From: the human T2T-CHM13v2.0 reference genome, Homo sapiens
NCBI RefSeq assembly: GCF_009914755.1
Contig: NC_060947.1
Length of the DNA stretch: 64,000 bases
Direction: 5' to 3' (one strand)
The notes under the pieces are model-generated. The model saw only the letters and a list, made by a program, of their open reading frames with translations. It did not search any database and had not been told where the DNA came from. Of this stretch, positions 32,403-36,991 are shown one piece after another. The position numbers and the translations under genes are program-made. How positions within the stretch are numbered: position 1 is the first letter of the stretch; every line of letters begins with the position of its first letter.

Positions 32403-34034
32403 ACATAAGCATCTTGATGGCAGGGACTGTGTCTTTTCAAAAATCCATGGGCTCTGTTTTATAGCACTTGATATTAAATAATCACCACCGAACATACACA
32501 GGCTAAGAACACTGAAGTGTTTAGAGAGAGAATTCACACAATCTTCCCAGACACCATATGACAAGTGACATAAAACATATTTACCTTTTAGTAATTCTAC
32601 TTCTGTGAATTCACTTTAAGGAAACGAGAGATGTGGAGACCGCATATGTACGCATTTTCTTCAAACTTAGGAGAAACTGGAAGGCCCCAAATAGGAGAAT
32701 GATTAAAAACTATCGCAAACTCCTAGGATGATCCAATAACATAACCATTTAAAAATCGTGTTTTTAGAGAATATTTAATGATGTGGAAAAATAGTCCTAA
32801 AGCTAAGTGAAAAAAAATCAAGATGCAAAACTATATGAAAGATTAAACAGTTATATAATCCAGCAGATTCAAGATAAATGAAAACATATGTCCATGCAAA
32901 AACTTGTACACAGGCCGGGTGTGGTGGCACATGCCTGTAATCCCAGCACTTTGGGAGGCCAAGGCAGGTGGATCACCTGAGGTCAGGAGTTCGAGACCAG
33001 GCTGGCCAACATGATGAAACCCTGTCTCTACTAAAAATACAAAAAGTAGCCGGGCGTGGTGGCACATGCCTGTAATCCTAGCTACTCAGGAGTCTGAGGC
33101 ACGAGAATCACTTGAACCCAGGAGGTGTAGATTGCAGTGAGCCAAGATTGCACCACTGCACTCCAGCATGGGTGACAGAGCGAGACTCCATCTCAAAAAA
33201 AAAAAAAAAAAAAACACACACACACTTGTACACAAATGTTCATAGCAGTATTATTCATAATAGCCAAAAATGGGAAATAATCAAAATGTCCATCAACTGA
33301 TGAATGGATAAATAAAATGTGGTTTATCCACACAACATAATATTATTCTGCCATGAAAAGGAATGAAGTACTGAAAATGCTACAACATGGATGAACCTTG
33401 AAAACGTTATGCTGAATAGAAGAAGCCAGATACAAAAGACCACATACTGTATGATTTTATTCACATGAAATGTCCAGACAGCAAATCTATACAGACAGAA
33501 AAAAGATTAGTTGTTGACTTGGTGGGGTGGGACAGAAGGGCAGTGGAGTGAAGAAAGAGGAGTGGCTGCTAAAGTGCAGGGATTTTCTTGGGGGGTGGTG
33601 GCACAGATAAATCTTCTAAAGTTGATTTATTTGTGGTGATGGGTTACACAACTGTGAATATACTAAAAGCCACTGAATTATACACTTTAGGGGAATTGTA
33701 TGGTATGTGAATTACATCTGAATAAAGGTGTTATTTAAAAATAGAATCTGGTCCAAATTTTACTTAAGAATTACATATGGAAAGACTGAAGAGATACCCA
33801 AAATTTTAAAGAGGGGCATTTTCTGAATGGTGAGATTTTAGGTAATTTTCATTTGTTCTTTTACTCTTTTCTGTATTTTCTGTGATGAGCATGCATTGTT
33901 TTCATAATCAGAAAAGTTATTGGTCTAATATAATTTCATGATAAACTGTATACATTTAAGATATACATACTGAAAAATGGTATGGTGAGAAATGAATCAA
34001 TCACCTTCTACCCACCTTCCCTCTGAAATGTGAA
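32403..34034 (+). repeat. Inverted duplication, left arm
   Basis: Reverse complement of 35361-36991. The first 135 bp are identical and the rest is diverged. The ORF track shows the same peptide on opposite strands (32232-32564 minus, 36788-37039 plus). Confidence 0.95.
32913..33214 (+). mobile_element. AluS specific to the left arm
   Basis: Flanked by acttgtacaca on both sides. Absent at the paralogous site in the right arm (~36152). Confidence 0.92.
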
Positions 34035-35021
34035 TATCGTCTCTTAAGAGTGGCTATATCACCTGTGGCTTTGCATTCAGATAAGTATTCATAATTGCCT
34101 CAGAAATCGATTACTGCATCTCAAACAGGTGCATCTCCCCTCAAACTTTATCCCCAAATATGAAGAGTTAAGTACCCTTACATAACCAAGATTCTGAGTC
34201 CTACATTTTTAACCACCAGAGGGAGCTGGAATGTAGAAAACCTGGGGCAGTCAGTTTTGTTTTGTTTTAAAGTTAGTTTCACAAAGGGCCATCAATTCAG
34301 GATCTTATGTAATTTTCCTAATTATTGTGAACCAGCACTTAAAAGATAATTCTTTTTTGCCTTTTTAAAATTCCACTTTTAAAGACTGCATACAGTAAAA
34401 GAGGTCTTCCTAAGAATCAAACTCTTAATAAACAACAGGCAAGACAGCACAGAAAAATAAAAAATATTCACACCCTCTATTAGCGAACATTTCTCTCAGA
34501 ATTGTCTGCTTCAGATCTTGAAGTCACGCAGTTGTGTCACAGTGATAAAGTTTCAAGTTATTCAATATACTTGAGCCCTCCCCGACTCGTTGAAAAGTTT
34601 CCTAACAAAGAAGAAACATTCAATGTGCCTGCATTCTATATGCATTACTATTGAAATCAGGATGGAGGTTTGCTAGGCATTGAGAAAGATGGTGAATAAG
34701 AGATGGGCCTACAGCGCCCAAAAGGAAGTTAAGCAATATTTGACTCAGGTCAGAATTTCTCAACTGAAGGTCTGAGTTTCAAGGTAATTCTTAAAGGGAA
34801 TTGTAATTATAGCTTCGGGGTTTCAGTGGGGTGAAAGCAGCAATTTGTCTTACCAGCAAAATGAGTAAATCTATAGAAGTTAATGTATTTATGTATAAAC
34901 AACCAAAAAGCACTTTGCTCTTCATTTTATATGTTCTTTTATTGACCTTTTCTTCATATTTCTTTAAAAAATTTTAATTGTGATAAAATATACAAAACAT
35001 AAAATTTACTGTGTTAAGCCC

Positions 35022-35315
35022 TTTTTTTTTTTTTTTTGACAGAGTCTCGCTCTGTCGCCAGGTTGGAGTGCAGTGGCATGATCTCGGCTCACCGCAAACT
35101 CTGCCTCCCGGGTTCAAGCAATTCTCCTGCCTCAGCCTTCCGAGTAGCTGGGACTACAGGTATGCGCCACTACATCCAGCTAACTTTTTGTATTTTTGGT
35201 GGAGACAAGGTTTCACCATGTTGGCCAGGATAGACTCGATCTCTTGACCTCATGATCCACCCACCTTGGCCTCCCAAAGTGCTGGGATTGCAGGTGTGAG
35301 CCACCACGCCCAGCC
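35022..35315 (-). mobile_element. AluS (Sc-like) inserted in an inverted L1MB tail
   Basis: Reverse Alu with TSD-like flanks ctgtgttaagcc / ctgtcttaagcc. Confidence 0.93.
35078..35159 (+). CDS. TCEANC: Alternative Alu-derived TCEANC coding exon portion (exon ~35043-35159), 30-aa N-terminal extension
   Basis: Acceptor (T)n-gacag (AG 35041-35042), ATG at 35078, donor CAG|GTATGC at 35160. Splicing to 37892 gives [35 protein letters not shown] in frame (381 aa). Confidence 0.7.
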
Positions 35316-35360
35316 TGTCTTAAGCCTTTTTAAGTATACAGTTCAGTAGTGTTATGTACA

Positions 35361-36991
35361 TTCTCGTTCCAGAGGGGAGGTGGGTAGAAGGTGATTGATT
35401 CATTGCTCATACCATTTTTCAGTAGGTATATCTTAAGTGCATATAGTTTATCATGAAATTGCGTTAGACCAATAACTTTTCTGATTATGAAAGCAATACA
35501 TGCTCATCACAGAAAATACAGAAGAGGAAAATAACAAATGAAAATTACCTAAAATCTTACCATTCAGAAAATGCCCCTCTTTAAAATTTTGTGTATCTCT
35601 TTTCAGTCTTTTCACATGTAATTCTTAAATAAAATTTGGATCAAATTCTATTTTTAAATAACACCTTTATTCAGATGTAATTCACACACCATACAGTTCA
35701 CCTAAAGTGTACAATTCAGTGTTTTTTAGTATACTCAGTTGTATAACCCATCACCACAAATAAATCTTGAGAAGATTTATGTGTGCCACCACCTCCCAAG
35801 AAAATCCCTGAACTTTATCAGCTGCTCCTCCTCCTTCACCCCACTGCCCTTCTGCCCTACCCTACCTAGTCAACAACTGATCTATTTTCTGTCTCTATAG
35901 ATTTGCCTGTTTTGGACATTTCATGTAAATAAAATCATACAATATGTGGACTTTTCTGTCTGGCTGCTTCTGCTCAGCATAATGTTTTCAAGGTTCATCC
36001 ATGTTGTAACTGTATCAATACTTCATTCCTTTTCATGGCAGAATAATATTCTGTTGTGTGGATAAATCACATTTTATTTATCCATTCATCAGTTGATGGA
36101 CATTTCGATTATTTCCCATTTTTGGCTATTGTGAATAATACTGCTATGAACATTTGTATACAAGTTTTTGTGTGGACATATGTTTTCATTTCTCTTGGAT
36201 CTGCTGGGTCATATGATAACTGGTTTATTCATTTATTTATTATTATTTTTTTTTAGACAGAGTCTTGCTGTGTTGCCCAGGCTGGAGTGCAGTGGCACGA
36301 TCTTGGCTCACTGCAAACTCCGCCTTCCAGGTTCATGCCATTCTCCTGCTTCAGCCTCCCAAGTAGCTAGGACTACAGGTGCCCGCCACCACACCCGGCT
36401 AATTTTTTGTATTTTTAGTAGAGATGGGGTTTCACCATGTTAGCCAGGATGGTCTCGATCTCCTGACCTCGTGATCTGCCTGCCTCAGCCTCCCAAAGTG
36501 CTGGGATTACAGGGTGAGTCACCATGCCCGGCCCATATGTTAACTGTTTAGTCTTTTATATAGTTTTACATCTTGATTGTTTTTCACCTAACTTTATGAC
36601 CATTTTTCCATGTCGTTAAATATTATCTAAATACATGATTTTTAAATGGTTATATTACTGTATCCTAGGAGTGTGCCATATTTTTAACCATTCTCCATTT
36701 AACCATTTGAGGGCCTTCTAATTTCTCCTTAGAAGAAAATTCTTACATATGCAGTCTCCACATCTCTCATTTCCTTAAAGTAAATTTATGGAAGTAGAAT
36801 TACTAAAAGGTCATTATGTTTTATGTCACTTGTCATATGGTGTCTGGGAAGACTGCGTGAATTCTCTCTCTAAACACTTCAGTGTTCTTAGCCTGTGTAT
36901 GTTCGGTGGTGATTATTTAATATCAAGTGCTATAAAACAGAGCCCATGGATTTTTGAAAAGACACAGTCCCTGCCATCAAGATGCTTATGT
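35361..36991 (-). repeat. Inverted duplication, right arm
   Basis: Reverse complement of 32403-34034. Confidence 0.95.
36233..36533 (-). mobile_element. AluY-like, specific to the right arm
   Basis: Flanks catatgataactg / catatgttaactg. Absent at the paralogous site in the left arm (~32855). Confidence 0.92.

What the first reader, a model, noticed from the sequence alone, without database searches (positions are those of the whole stretch)
32403..36991. Inverted duplication brackets an alternative coding exon of TCEANC: candidate invertible or RNA-hairpin isoform switch
Seen: arms 32403-34034 and 35361-36991 are reverse complements around a ~1.3 kb spacer in the TCEANC intron, ending 0.9 kb before the main coding exon. 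The spacer contains the antisense Alu exon that adds 30 aa to TCEANC. Established: inverted repeats mediate recurrent NAHR inversions, Alu exonisation mostly needs antisense orientation, and intronic complementary arms can loop out or circularise an enclosed exon and attract ADAR. Inference: exon use could be controlled by pre-mRNA pairing of the arms, and flipping the spacer would turn the Alu sense and abolish the 381-aa isoform. I do not know of a description of this arrangement but cannot search the literature.
Basis: partly seen in the sequence, partly recalled or inferred. Interest (0 to 1): 0.8.

Follow-up and report, generated by a model that had tools for sequence, protein, structure and literature searches.

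The report
Old inverted duplication in TCEANC intron
A stretch of a TCEANC intron was copied backwards long ago and later picked up Alu elements that became optional exons; it is real and could fold the RNA, but it is a fairly ordinary structure with no sign that it flips as DNA.

Summary
The inverted repeat is real. Arm A is 32403-34035 and arm B is 35360-36991, with a 1324-nt spacer. It is a local inverted duplication, not two transposon insertions. The outer and inner arm parts have only these two copies in T2T-CHM13. The middle is a decayed L1 3' end.

After removing one private Alu from each arm, the arms are 91.5% identical (1183 of 1293). The longest perfect tract is 135 nt. That is too short and diverged for a toggling DNA switch. 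GRCh38 and CHM13 have the same orientation.

Exon 35043-35159 spliced straight to the coding exon gives 381 aa.

Folding predicts a hairpin about 1180 kcal/mol more stable than a control. The only sense Alu, in arm A, hides exon 3 before arm B exists and hides exon 4 afterwards. This is thermodynamic prediction only. Substitutions show no selection for pairing (38 against 36).

A similar-sized L1-pair repeat lies 13 kb away. No paper found describes the arrangement. Interest is modest.

The parts
32403..34035 (+). Arm A of the inverted duplication (1633 nt including its private Alu; 1311 nt without it)
35360..36991 (-). Arm B, the reverse complement of arm A (1632 nt including its private Alu; 1308 nt without it)
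34036..35359 (.). Spacer (the loop of the hairpin), 1324 nt. It is single-copy in the genome except for a short common repeat next to the Alu.
32403..32537 (.). Perfectly identical 135-nt tract at the outer end of the arms (partner 36857-36991). The first 200 alignment columns hold 4 differences, against 119 in the other 1126. This is a candidate gene-conversion tract or a late outward extension of the repeat.
   Evidence: simulation P=2e-4; Fisher P=1.7e-5
32913..33213 (+). Alu A, a sense Alu private to arm A with its own target-site duplication. The site is empty in arm B. It is the only sense Alu found inside the TCEANC span.
36236..36533 (-). Alu B, an antisense Alu private to arm B with its own target-site duplication. 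It was inserted about 60 nt from the position equivalent to Alu A. The site is empty in arm A.
35022..35315 (-). Spacer Alu, antisense, flanked by a short target-site duplication
35043..35159 (+). Exon 3 (Alu-derived), with an ATG at 35078. Spliced directly to exon 5 it gives the 381-aa frame.
   Evidence: hub annotation
36422..36513 (+). Exon 4 (Alu-derived, inside arm B), 92 nt. Its inclusion shifts the frame, so only the 351-aa ORF remains.
   Evidence: hub annotation
35920..36189 (-). Decayed C-terminus of L1 ORF2 inside arm B (5 stop codons). The matching part of arm A is split by Alu A. The L1-like part of arm A runs from roughly 32870 to 33740.
33745..34035 (+). Inner non-L1 part of arm A. 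Only two full-length copies exist in the genome, arm A and arm B.
37892..38955 (+). Start of exon 5 with the main ATG at 37900 (351-aa ORF), 901 nt downstream of arm B
   Evidence: hub annotation

Best explanation
This is a fixed, old, local inverted duplication of about 1.3 kb of TCEANC intron. The copied piece was a decayed L1 3' end together with its unique flanks.

After the duplication, three Alus landed independently: a sense Alu in arm A, an antisense Alu in arm B and an antisense Alu in the spacer. The two antisense Alus became optional 5' exons 3 and 4. The DNA is not a switch.

In the pre-mRNA the arms are expected to form a long imperfect hairpin. Its most likely consequences are the generic ones for intronic double-stranded RNA. 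These are A-to-I editing and a bias, not a regulated decision, in the use of the two Alu exons.

The specific predicted bias is as follows. The single sense Alu pairs with the exon 3 Alu until arm B is transcribed. Once the arms zip in register, it pairs with the exon 4 Alu. Arm pairing would therefore favour exon 3 in and exon 4 out, which is the 381-aa frame.

What is shown: the duplication, its composition, the order of events, the reading frames and the folding energies. What is inferred: any effect in cells.
For: - Local duplication. The outer part (32403-32850) and the inner part (33745-34035) each have exactly two full-length copies in the 3.1-Gb assembly, the two arms, at 89-90% identity. 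The central L1 part has 6847 first-look candidates, of which 40 were scored. The best copy elsewhere is 74% identical over the full length or 81% over part, against 90% for the other arm.
- L1 identity. The translation with X at 5 stops matches LINE-1 ORF2p residues 1187-1267 at E=7.8e-14.
- Alus came later. Each arm Alu has its own target-site duplication and an intact empty site in the other arm.
- Age. Identity is 1183 of 1293 (91.5%), K2P is 0.091 and there are 13 indel events.
- Reading frames. Exon 3 joined to exon 5 gives 381 aa. Any form containing exon 4 gives 351 aa.
- Hairpin. The MFE is -2595.9 kcal/mol, against -1416.1 when arm B is flipped. There are 1422 inter-arm pairs. Exon 4 has 85 of 92 nt and both splice sites paired to Alu A.
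- Before arm B exists, exon 3 has 102 of 117 nt paired to Alu A. The two Alu duplexes have equal energy, -452.2 and -453.0.
- Not a DNA switch. The longest identical tract is 135 nt and the next is 42 nt. GRCh38 has the same exon 3-exon 4 intron length and strand as CHM13, 1262 nt.
Against: - The 135-nt perfect tract and 98% identity over the first 200 columns suggest arm-to-arm gene conversion. The arms have therefore interacted as DNA, and an inversion at some point in primate history cannot be excluded.
- The non-CpG divergence of the two arm Alus from a window-derived consensus is 5.8% and 6.5%. That is not lower than the per-arm divergence of about 4.5%. Either the arms were partly homogenised or the consensus is crude.
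- The selected RefSeq transcript includes both exon 3 and exon 4. Neither masking state predicts this.
- MFE folding ignores co-transcriptional splicing, helicases and Alu-binding proteins.
- No RNA data of any kind were available here.
Confidence: 0.6

Rival explanations
1. A regulated RNA-hairpin isoform switch. Pairing of the arms is used by the cell to choose between the exon 3-only transcript (381 aa) and exon 4-containing or exon-skipped transcripts (351 aa), and it has been kept by selection.
For: - Arm pairing adds a very large predicted stabilisation of about -1180 kcal/mol.
- Alu A changes partner from the exon 3 Alu to the exon 4 Alu once arm B is present.
- Exon 4 inclusion changes the reading frame.
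- A 135-nt perfect tract lies at the base of the stem.
Against: - Of the 74 transitions between the arms, 38 keep a G:U pair on the sense transcript and 36 give A:C (binomial P=0.91). There is no strand-specific sign of selection for pairing.
- The arms have 110 mismatches and 13 indels.
- The 381-aa ATG lies behind two upstream ATGs, at 30695 and 30738.
- The added 30 residues are Alu-derived.
- An L1-pair inverted repeat of similar size lies 13 kb away in intergenic DNA, so such pairing potential arises without function.
Confidence: 0.2
2. An invertible DNA segment. Recombination between the arms flips the spacer recurrently or as a human polymorphism, turning exon 3 on or off.
For: - The arms are inverted and bracket the exon.
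- A probable gene-conversion tract shows that the arms have exchanged sequence.
- In the Porubsky et al. preprint, 21 of 22 L1-pair-flanked balanced inversions have more than 90% identity, so 91.5% is not outside the observed range (passages read).
Against: - The median identity of those L1 pairs is 97.2%. [quoted passage not shown]
- Here the arms are 1.3 kb, with one 135-nt perfect tract and all others 42 nt or shorter.
- Two of two reference haplotypes, GRCh38 and CHM13, share the orientation.
- Comparable repeats occur at 2 loci per 264 kb, whereas only 31 balanced inversions flanked by mobile-element pairs were reported in that survey. The prior for any one such locus is therefore far below 1%.
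Confidence: 0.03
3. Two independent L1 insertions in opposite orientation, that is a chance transposon pair and no duplication.
For: About half of each arm is the 3' end of an L1. The neighbouring repeat at 49383-50470 / 54518-55603 is of exactly this kind.
Against: - The homology continues about 295 nt beyond the L1 3' end and about 450 nt on the other side, into sequence with only two copies in the genome.
- The L1 parts are 90% alike, against 81% or less to any other scored copy.
Confidence: 0.01
4. Not exclusive of the readings above: the exon 3-exon 4 junction of the selected transcript is an alignment artefact between two similar Alus. In that case exon 4, or its link to exon 3, is not real and the isoform choice is simpler than annotated.
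For: The EASTR paper (PMC10632439) says this intron 'appears erroneous'. It cites Alu-Alu flanks with 84% identity, a poor acceptor and a disrupted ORF. Passages were read, and the supplementary table row chrX:13659768-13661030. The two Alus are direct repeats at 83.7% over 295 columns.
Against: Exon 4 has a donor, CAGG|gtgagt, that I recall as consensus-like, and a polypyrimidine-AG acceptor. RefSeq still selects the transcript in the 2025 annotation supplied by the hub. The paper's Supplementary Note 2 and its figures are PDFs that could not be read here.
Confidence: 0.3

Closest known systems
Intronic reverse-complementary repeats, mostly inverted Alu pairs, that loop out exons, promote exon skipping or back-splicing and attract ADAR (recalled: Lev-Maor 2008; Jeck 2013; Zhang 2014)
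   Same: Complementary sequences lie in the introns on both sides of an exon, with a predicted stable duplex. A sense/antisense Alu pair is directly involved.
   Different: The pairing partners are mainly a 1.3-kb two-copy segmental duplication rather than only 300-nt Alus. One arm itself contains an exon. No circRNA, editing or skipping data were seen, and 0 papers mention circTCEANC.
Alu exonisation from antisense Alus, including the editing-dependent NARF exon that needs a nearby inverted Alu (recalled: Sorek 2002; Lev-Maor 2003 and 2007)
   Same: Both optional exons lie in antisense Alus. They use the poly-T/AG acceptor and Alu-internal GT donors. A single inverted (sense) Alu lies upstream.
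   Different: Two consecutive Alu exons are involved, which the EASTR paper calls unlikely. Dependence on editing was not tested.
Inverted segmental duplications and X/Y palindromes that toggle by NAHR (Porubsky et al. preprint, passages read; Warburton 2004, recalled and not held)
   Same: Inverted arms around a spacer on the X chromosome, with probable arm-to-arm gene conversion.
   Different: The arms are one to two orders of magnitude shorter (1.3 kb against 10 kb or more) and far more diverged (91.5% against typically above 97-99%). No second orientation is known.
Long inverted repeats (LIRs) as catalogued in LIRBase (PMC8728187, passages read)
   Same: It meets the stated criteria: arms over 400 nt, at least 80% matches, at most 10% indels and a loop of at most 100 kb.
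   Different: LIRBase is aimed at hairpin RNAs that yield siRNAs, and no small-RNA evidence was seen here. Whether this locus is listed could not be checked.

Membership tests
Segmental (inverted) duplication | Two copies that are each other's closest relatives, with homology running across repeat/unique junctions | tested here: met
   only two full-length copies genome-wide for the non-L1 parts; 90% between the arms against 81% or less to other L1 copies.
Segmental (inverted) duplication | At least 1 kb and at least 90% identity (the conventional threshold, recalled) | tested here: met
   1293 aligned columns at 91.5% after removing the later Alus. With the Alus the figure is 82.4% over 1708 columns, so the threshold is met only marginally.
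NAHR-toggling inverted repeats | Long, highly identical arms (mostly 10 kb or more; L1 pairs have a median of 97.2%) | tested here: not met
   1.3 kb, 91.5%, longest identical tract 135 nt.
NAHR-toggling inverted repeats | Both orientations observed among haplotypes or species | not testable with these tools
   Only CHM13 is held. GRCh38 shares the orientation, judged from the identical exon 3-exon 4 intron. No primate or pangenome assemblies are available, and the inversion call sets are in closed supplements.
Intronic complementary sequences that loop out or circularise an exon | Complementary sequences in the introns on both sides of the exon | tested here: met
   Arm A lies in the exon 2-3 intron. 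The inner two thirds of arm B lie in the exon 3-4 intron (hub annotation).
Intronic complementary sequences that loop out or circularise an exon | A stable duplex compared with a control | tested here: met
   -2595.9 against -1416.1 kcal/mol, with 1422 inter-arm pairs. This is prediction only.
Intronic complementary sequences that loop out or circularise an exon | Back-spliced or skipped products that depend on the repeats, and A-to-I editing in the arms | not testable with these tools
   No RNA-seq is available. Literature searches found nothing relevant.
Selected RNA structure | Substitutions biased towards those that keep pairing on the transcribed strand | tested here: not met
   38 G:U-compatible against 36 A:C transitions, P=0.91.
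Antisense Alu exon | The exon lies within an Alu antisense to the gene and uses Alu-derived splice sites | tested here: met
   exon 3 lies in Alu 35022-35315 and exon 4 in Alu 36236-36533. Both Alus have poly-T on the + strand, and the acceptors and donors were read from the sequence.
Independent L1 pair or L1 twin-priming inversion | Homology confined to L1 sequence | tested here: not met
   homology extends into two-copy non-L1 flanks on both sides.

The most novel reading that the evidence does not exclude
A primate-specific, three-Alu bistable RNA switch guided by a long inverted duplication. The single sense Alu in arm A can mask either of two antisense Alu exons with equal energy. Whether the 1.3-kb arms zip in register decides which exon is hidden. 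That decision sets whether TCEANC is made with or without a 30-residue N-terminal extension, or how many upstream ORFs load its 5' UTR. The timing of transcription against splicing, helicases or ADAR would be the input.
Probability: 0.1. Interest if true: 0.6.

Novelty: new member of a known kind. Interest (0 to 1): 0.3.

Why it matters
If the hairpin forms and biases exon choice, TCEANC would be a clean natural case for two questions. One is how a long non-Alu intronic duplex steers competition between Alu exons. The other is how a duplication followed by Alu insertions can build new 5' exons and an alternative N-terminus in primates.

It also bears on a practical annotation question. The MANE/RefSeq-selected transcript of this gene has been challenged in print, and the inverted-repeat context helps explain why short-read evidence here is ambiguous.

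As it stands, the locus is one more long inverted repeat in an intron, with no evidence of function.

Tried and rejected
- Independent L1 insertions as the origin of the arms: rejected.
- Working out which arm is the parent copy. An L1 3' fragment at about 32002-32400 ends at or near the arm A boundary. One local alignment ran into arm A as far as 32514, but the first 220 nt of arm A scored no better than shuffles against 6 L1 tails (scores 10-15 against shuffle means of 11.7-14.3). This stays undetermined without an outgroup.
The PDB sequence search gave the L1 ORF2p match instead.
- Rfam at gathering thresholds over 31500-38000: 0 matches.
- Literature. TCEANC alone gave 128 papers, of which 40 were listed and none concerned this structure. 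TCEANC with circRNA gave 4, with inversion 5, with Alu 3, with editing 43 (15 listed), with 'inverted repeat' 0 and with dsRNA 3. circTCEANC variants gave 0. Only the EASTR paper and its preprint bear on the locus. For the other listed papers, titles and abstract starts were seen; for preprint 10.1101/2024.02.13.580120 the matching passages were also read, and its one use of 'inversion' is generic.
- Warburton 2004 (PMC524409) is not held.
- Base rate of comparable repeats. The estimate of 2 loci per 264 kb is therefore rough and local.
- Dating from Alu divergence used a crude majority consensus of the 27 Alus in the window. No subfamily was assigned.
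Full report
**1. The observation**

- The repeat finder lists collinear inverted blocks from 32400 to 34035, paired with 36994 down to 35360.
- BLAST of the region against itself gives two main inverted HSPs. 32403-32853 matches 36991-36541 at 89.1% over 459 columns. 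33215-34035 matches 36174-35360 at 89.8% over 825 columns.
- With lenient scoring these merge into one alignment of 1708 columns at 82.4%.
- The spacer is 34036-35359 (1324 nt), and arm B ends 901 nt before exon 5.

**2. What the arms are**

The arms are composite.
- The middle of each arm is the 3' end of an old L1. Read with X at its five stop codons, 36189-35920 on the minus strand matches LINE-1 ORF2 protein residues 1187-1267 at E=7.8e-14.
- Pfam gave nothing for the same translation.
- That middle part belongs to a very large family, with 6847 first-look candidates in the assembly, of which 40 were scored. Its best match outside the locus is 74% over the full length, or 81% over part, against 90% to the other arm.
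- The outer 448 nt (32403-32850) and the inner 291 nt (33745-34035) have only two full-length copies in the 3.1-Gb T2T-CHM13 assembly, and those are the two arms. The other matches are fragments of 46-93 nt.
- The spacer is single-copy apart from about 60 nt of a common repeat beside its Alu.

This is therefore a local inverted segmental duplication of an L1 fragment together with its flanks. It is not a pair of independent insertions.

**3. Three later Alus**

The residue-level alignment and the junction sequences show that each arm carries an Alu the other lacks.
- Alu A (32913-33213, sense to TCEANC) and Alu B (36236-36533, antisense) sit about 60 nt apart in equivalent arm positions.
- Each has its own target-site duplication and an intact empty site in the opposite arm. 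Both therefore inserted after the duplication.
- A third, antisense Alu (35022-35315) with its own short target-site duplication sits in the spacer.
- Within the gene span, these are the only near-full-length Alus among the 27 found in the window. Alu A is the only sense one. A further sense Alu starts at 40839, just past the annotated gene end.

**4. Divergence and age**

With the private Alus excised the arms are 1311 and 1308 nt.
- 1183 of 1293 aligned positions are identical (91.5%). There are 74 transitions, 36 transversions and 13 indel events, and K2P is 0.091.
- On recalled primate substitution rates this means tens of millions of years, roughly the age of the anthropoid or catarrhine stem. 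This is an inference and could not be checked against other primates here.
- The non-CpG divergence of Alu A (5.8%) and Alu B (6.5%) from a crude window consensus is not lower than the per-arm divergence of about 4.5%. This points to partial homogenisation of the arms or to the crudeness of the consensus.
- Identity is uneven. The outermost 135 nt (32403-32537 against 36991-36857) are perfectly identical, with P about 2e-4 in 20,000 simulations at the average difference rate.
- The first 200 columns hold 4 differences against 119 in the remaining 1126 (Fisher P=1.7e-5).
- The simplest reading is a more recent gene-conversion event, or an outward extension of the repeat.
- Which arm is the parent could not be decided.

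**5. Exons and reading frames**

Exon 3 (35043-35159) lies in the spacer Alu, and exon 4 (36422-36513) lies in Alu B, which is inside arm B.
- Joining exon 3 directly to exon 5 puts an ATG at 35078 in frame with the main ATG at 37900 and gives 381 aa. The extension begins MISAHRKL.
- Exon 4 is 92 nt. Any transcript containing it yields only the 351-aa ORF. The 35078 ATG then starts a 44-codon upstream ORF.
- The selected transcript's 350-nt 5' UTR carries six upstream ATGs. In the exon 3-exon 5 form, two ATGs (30695 and 30738) precede the 381-aa start.
- I did not see a transcript record with the exon 3-exon 5 junction. The hub table is compatible with one.

**6. A published doubt about the annotation**

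The EASTR paper (PMC10632439) states that the intron between these two Alu exons in NM_001297563 'appears erroneous'.
- Its reasons are Alu-Alu flanks at 84% identity, a poor acceptor and a disrupted ORF. Passages were read, and one supplementary table row.
- Its Supplementary Note 2 and its figures are PDFs that could not be read.
- The sequence shows a donor, CAGG|gtgagt, that I recall as consensus-like, and a pyrimidine-rich acceptor for exon 4. The exon is therefore plausible, but this remains open.
- The table row also shows that GRCh38 has this intron on the same strand and with the same 1262-nt length as CHM13. Exon 3 is in the spacer and exon 4 is in arm B, so the two assemblies share the spacer orientation.

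**7. The DNA-switch reading**

This reading is not supported.
- Apart from the 135-nt tract, the longest identical runs are 42, 38 and 38 nt.
- In the Porubsky et al. preprint (passages read), 21 of 22 L1-pair-flanked balanced inversions have more than 90% identity, with a median of 97.2%.
- In 264 kb of contiguous sequence (the window plus 200 kb), two loci have inverted HSPs of at least 400 nt and at least 80% identity within 10 kb. One is this locus. The other is an L1 pair at 49383-50470 / 54518-55603 (1089 nt, 91.1%, 4-kb spacer) with a third copy at 58162-58864.
- Such repeats are thus common, while only 31 balanced inversions flanked by mobile-element pairs were reported in that survey. 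The prior for a polymorphism at any one of them is well under 1%.
- The probable conversion tract keeps a rare evolutionary inversion possible.

**8. The RNA-hairpin reading**

This reading is thermodynamically strong but otherwise untested.
- Folding 32350-37050 gives -2595.9 kcal/mol with 1422 arm A-arm B pairs. The same sequence with arm B reverse-complemented gives -1416.1.
- In the full fold, Alu A pairs with Alu B (257 pairs). Exon 4 has 85 of 92 nt paired, its acceptor region 38 of 40 and its donor region 20 of 21. Exon 3 sits in the loop and folds only locally.
- Folding only what exists before arm B is transcribed (32350-35359) puts Alu A on the spacer Alu (260 pairs). Exon 3 then has 102 of 117 nt paired, its acceptor region 31 of 40 and its donor region 19 of 21.
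- In isolation the two Alu duplexes are equal in energy, -452.2 and -453.0 kcal/mol. It is the register of the long arms that would decide which exon is hidden.

Arm pairing favours exon 3 in and exon 4 out, which is the 381-aa frame. Without arm pairing, exon 3 is masked.

Four points count against a selected function.
- Transitions between the arms are 38 G:U-compatible against 36 A:C on the sense strand (P=0.91).
- The selected transcript includes both exons.
- The extension is Alu-derived and lies behind upstream ATGs.
- Equivalent pairing potential arises nearby by chance.

Rfam finds no known RNA family in 31500-38000.

**9. Comparison and novelty**

- The locus behaves like intronic complementary repeats (inverted Alu pairs) that affect exon skipping, circularisation and editing.
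- It fits the formal criteria for long inverted repeats in LIRBase.
- It contains textbook antisense Alu exons.
- It fails the tested criteria for NAHR-toggling repeats.
- The searches found no paper describing the inverted duplication. Supplementary tables of editing, circRNA and inversion surveys are not covered by those searches and may list it.

I rate it a new member of a known kind with modest interest.

**10. Limits**

No other primate genome, no population assemblies and no RNA data were available. The age, the parent arm, the orientation in other haplotypes and every cellular effect are therefore inference. The base-rate estimate rests on 264 kb only.

Noticed in passing
window 35160-36421 (GRCh38 chrX:13659768-13661030): The intron between the two Alu exons of the MANE/RefSeq-selected TCEANC transcript is called probably erroneous in the EASTR paper (PMC10632439). 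The flanking Alus are direct repeats at 83.7% identity.
   Followed up: partly
window 49383-50470 / 54518-55603 / 58162-58864: Young L1 3' ends form another inverted repeat in the TCEANC-RAB9A intergenic region. One pair is 1089 nt at 91.1% with a 4-kb spacer. A third copy gives 703 nt at 97.7% with an 8-kb gap. The higher identity makes this a better NAHR substrate than the TCEANC arms.
   Followed up: no
window 32002-32419: A separate L1 3' fragment lies directly upstream of arm A and stops at or just inside the arm boundary. It could mark a duplication breakpoint, but homology beyond 32419 was not significant.
   Followed up: partly
window 28528-37899 (5' UTR exons): The selected transcript's 350-nt 5' UTR has six upstream ATGs, four of them in the Alu exons. 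An ATG at 30738 opens a 51-53-codon upstream ORF in the forms that include exon 3; in the exon 3-exon 5 form it overlaps the main start.
   Followed up: partly
window 40839-41138: A sense Alu starts 39 nt past the annotated TCEANC 3' end. It would be included in the reported TCEANC-RAB9A read-through RNA (bioRxiv 10.1101/2024.02.13.580120, passages read). It is 82-83% complementary to both Alu exons.
   Followed up: no
literature, not the window: In Drosophila the TCEANC orthologue CG8117 is reported as the one mRNA targeted in trans by a hairpin-RNA-derived siRNA (bioRxiv 10.64898/2026.05.18.725984, passages read). The human arms share no sequence with TCEANC exons, so this looks like a coincidence.
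   Followed up: no
window 33214-33224: A short CA-repeat lies between the poly-A tail of Alu A and its 3' target-site duplication.
   Followed up: no
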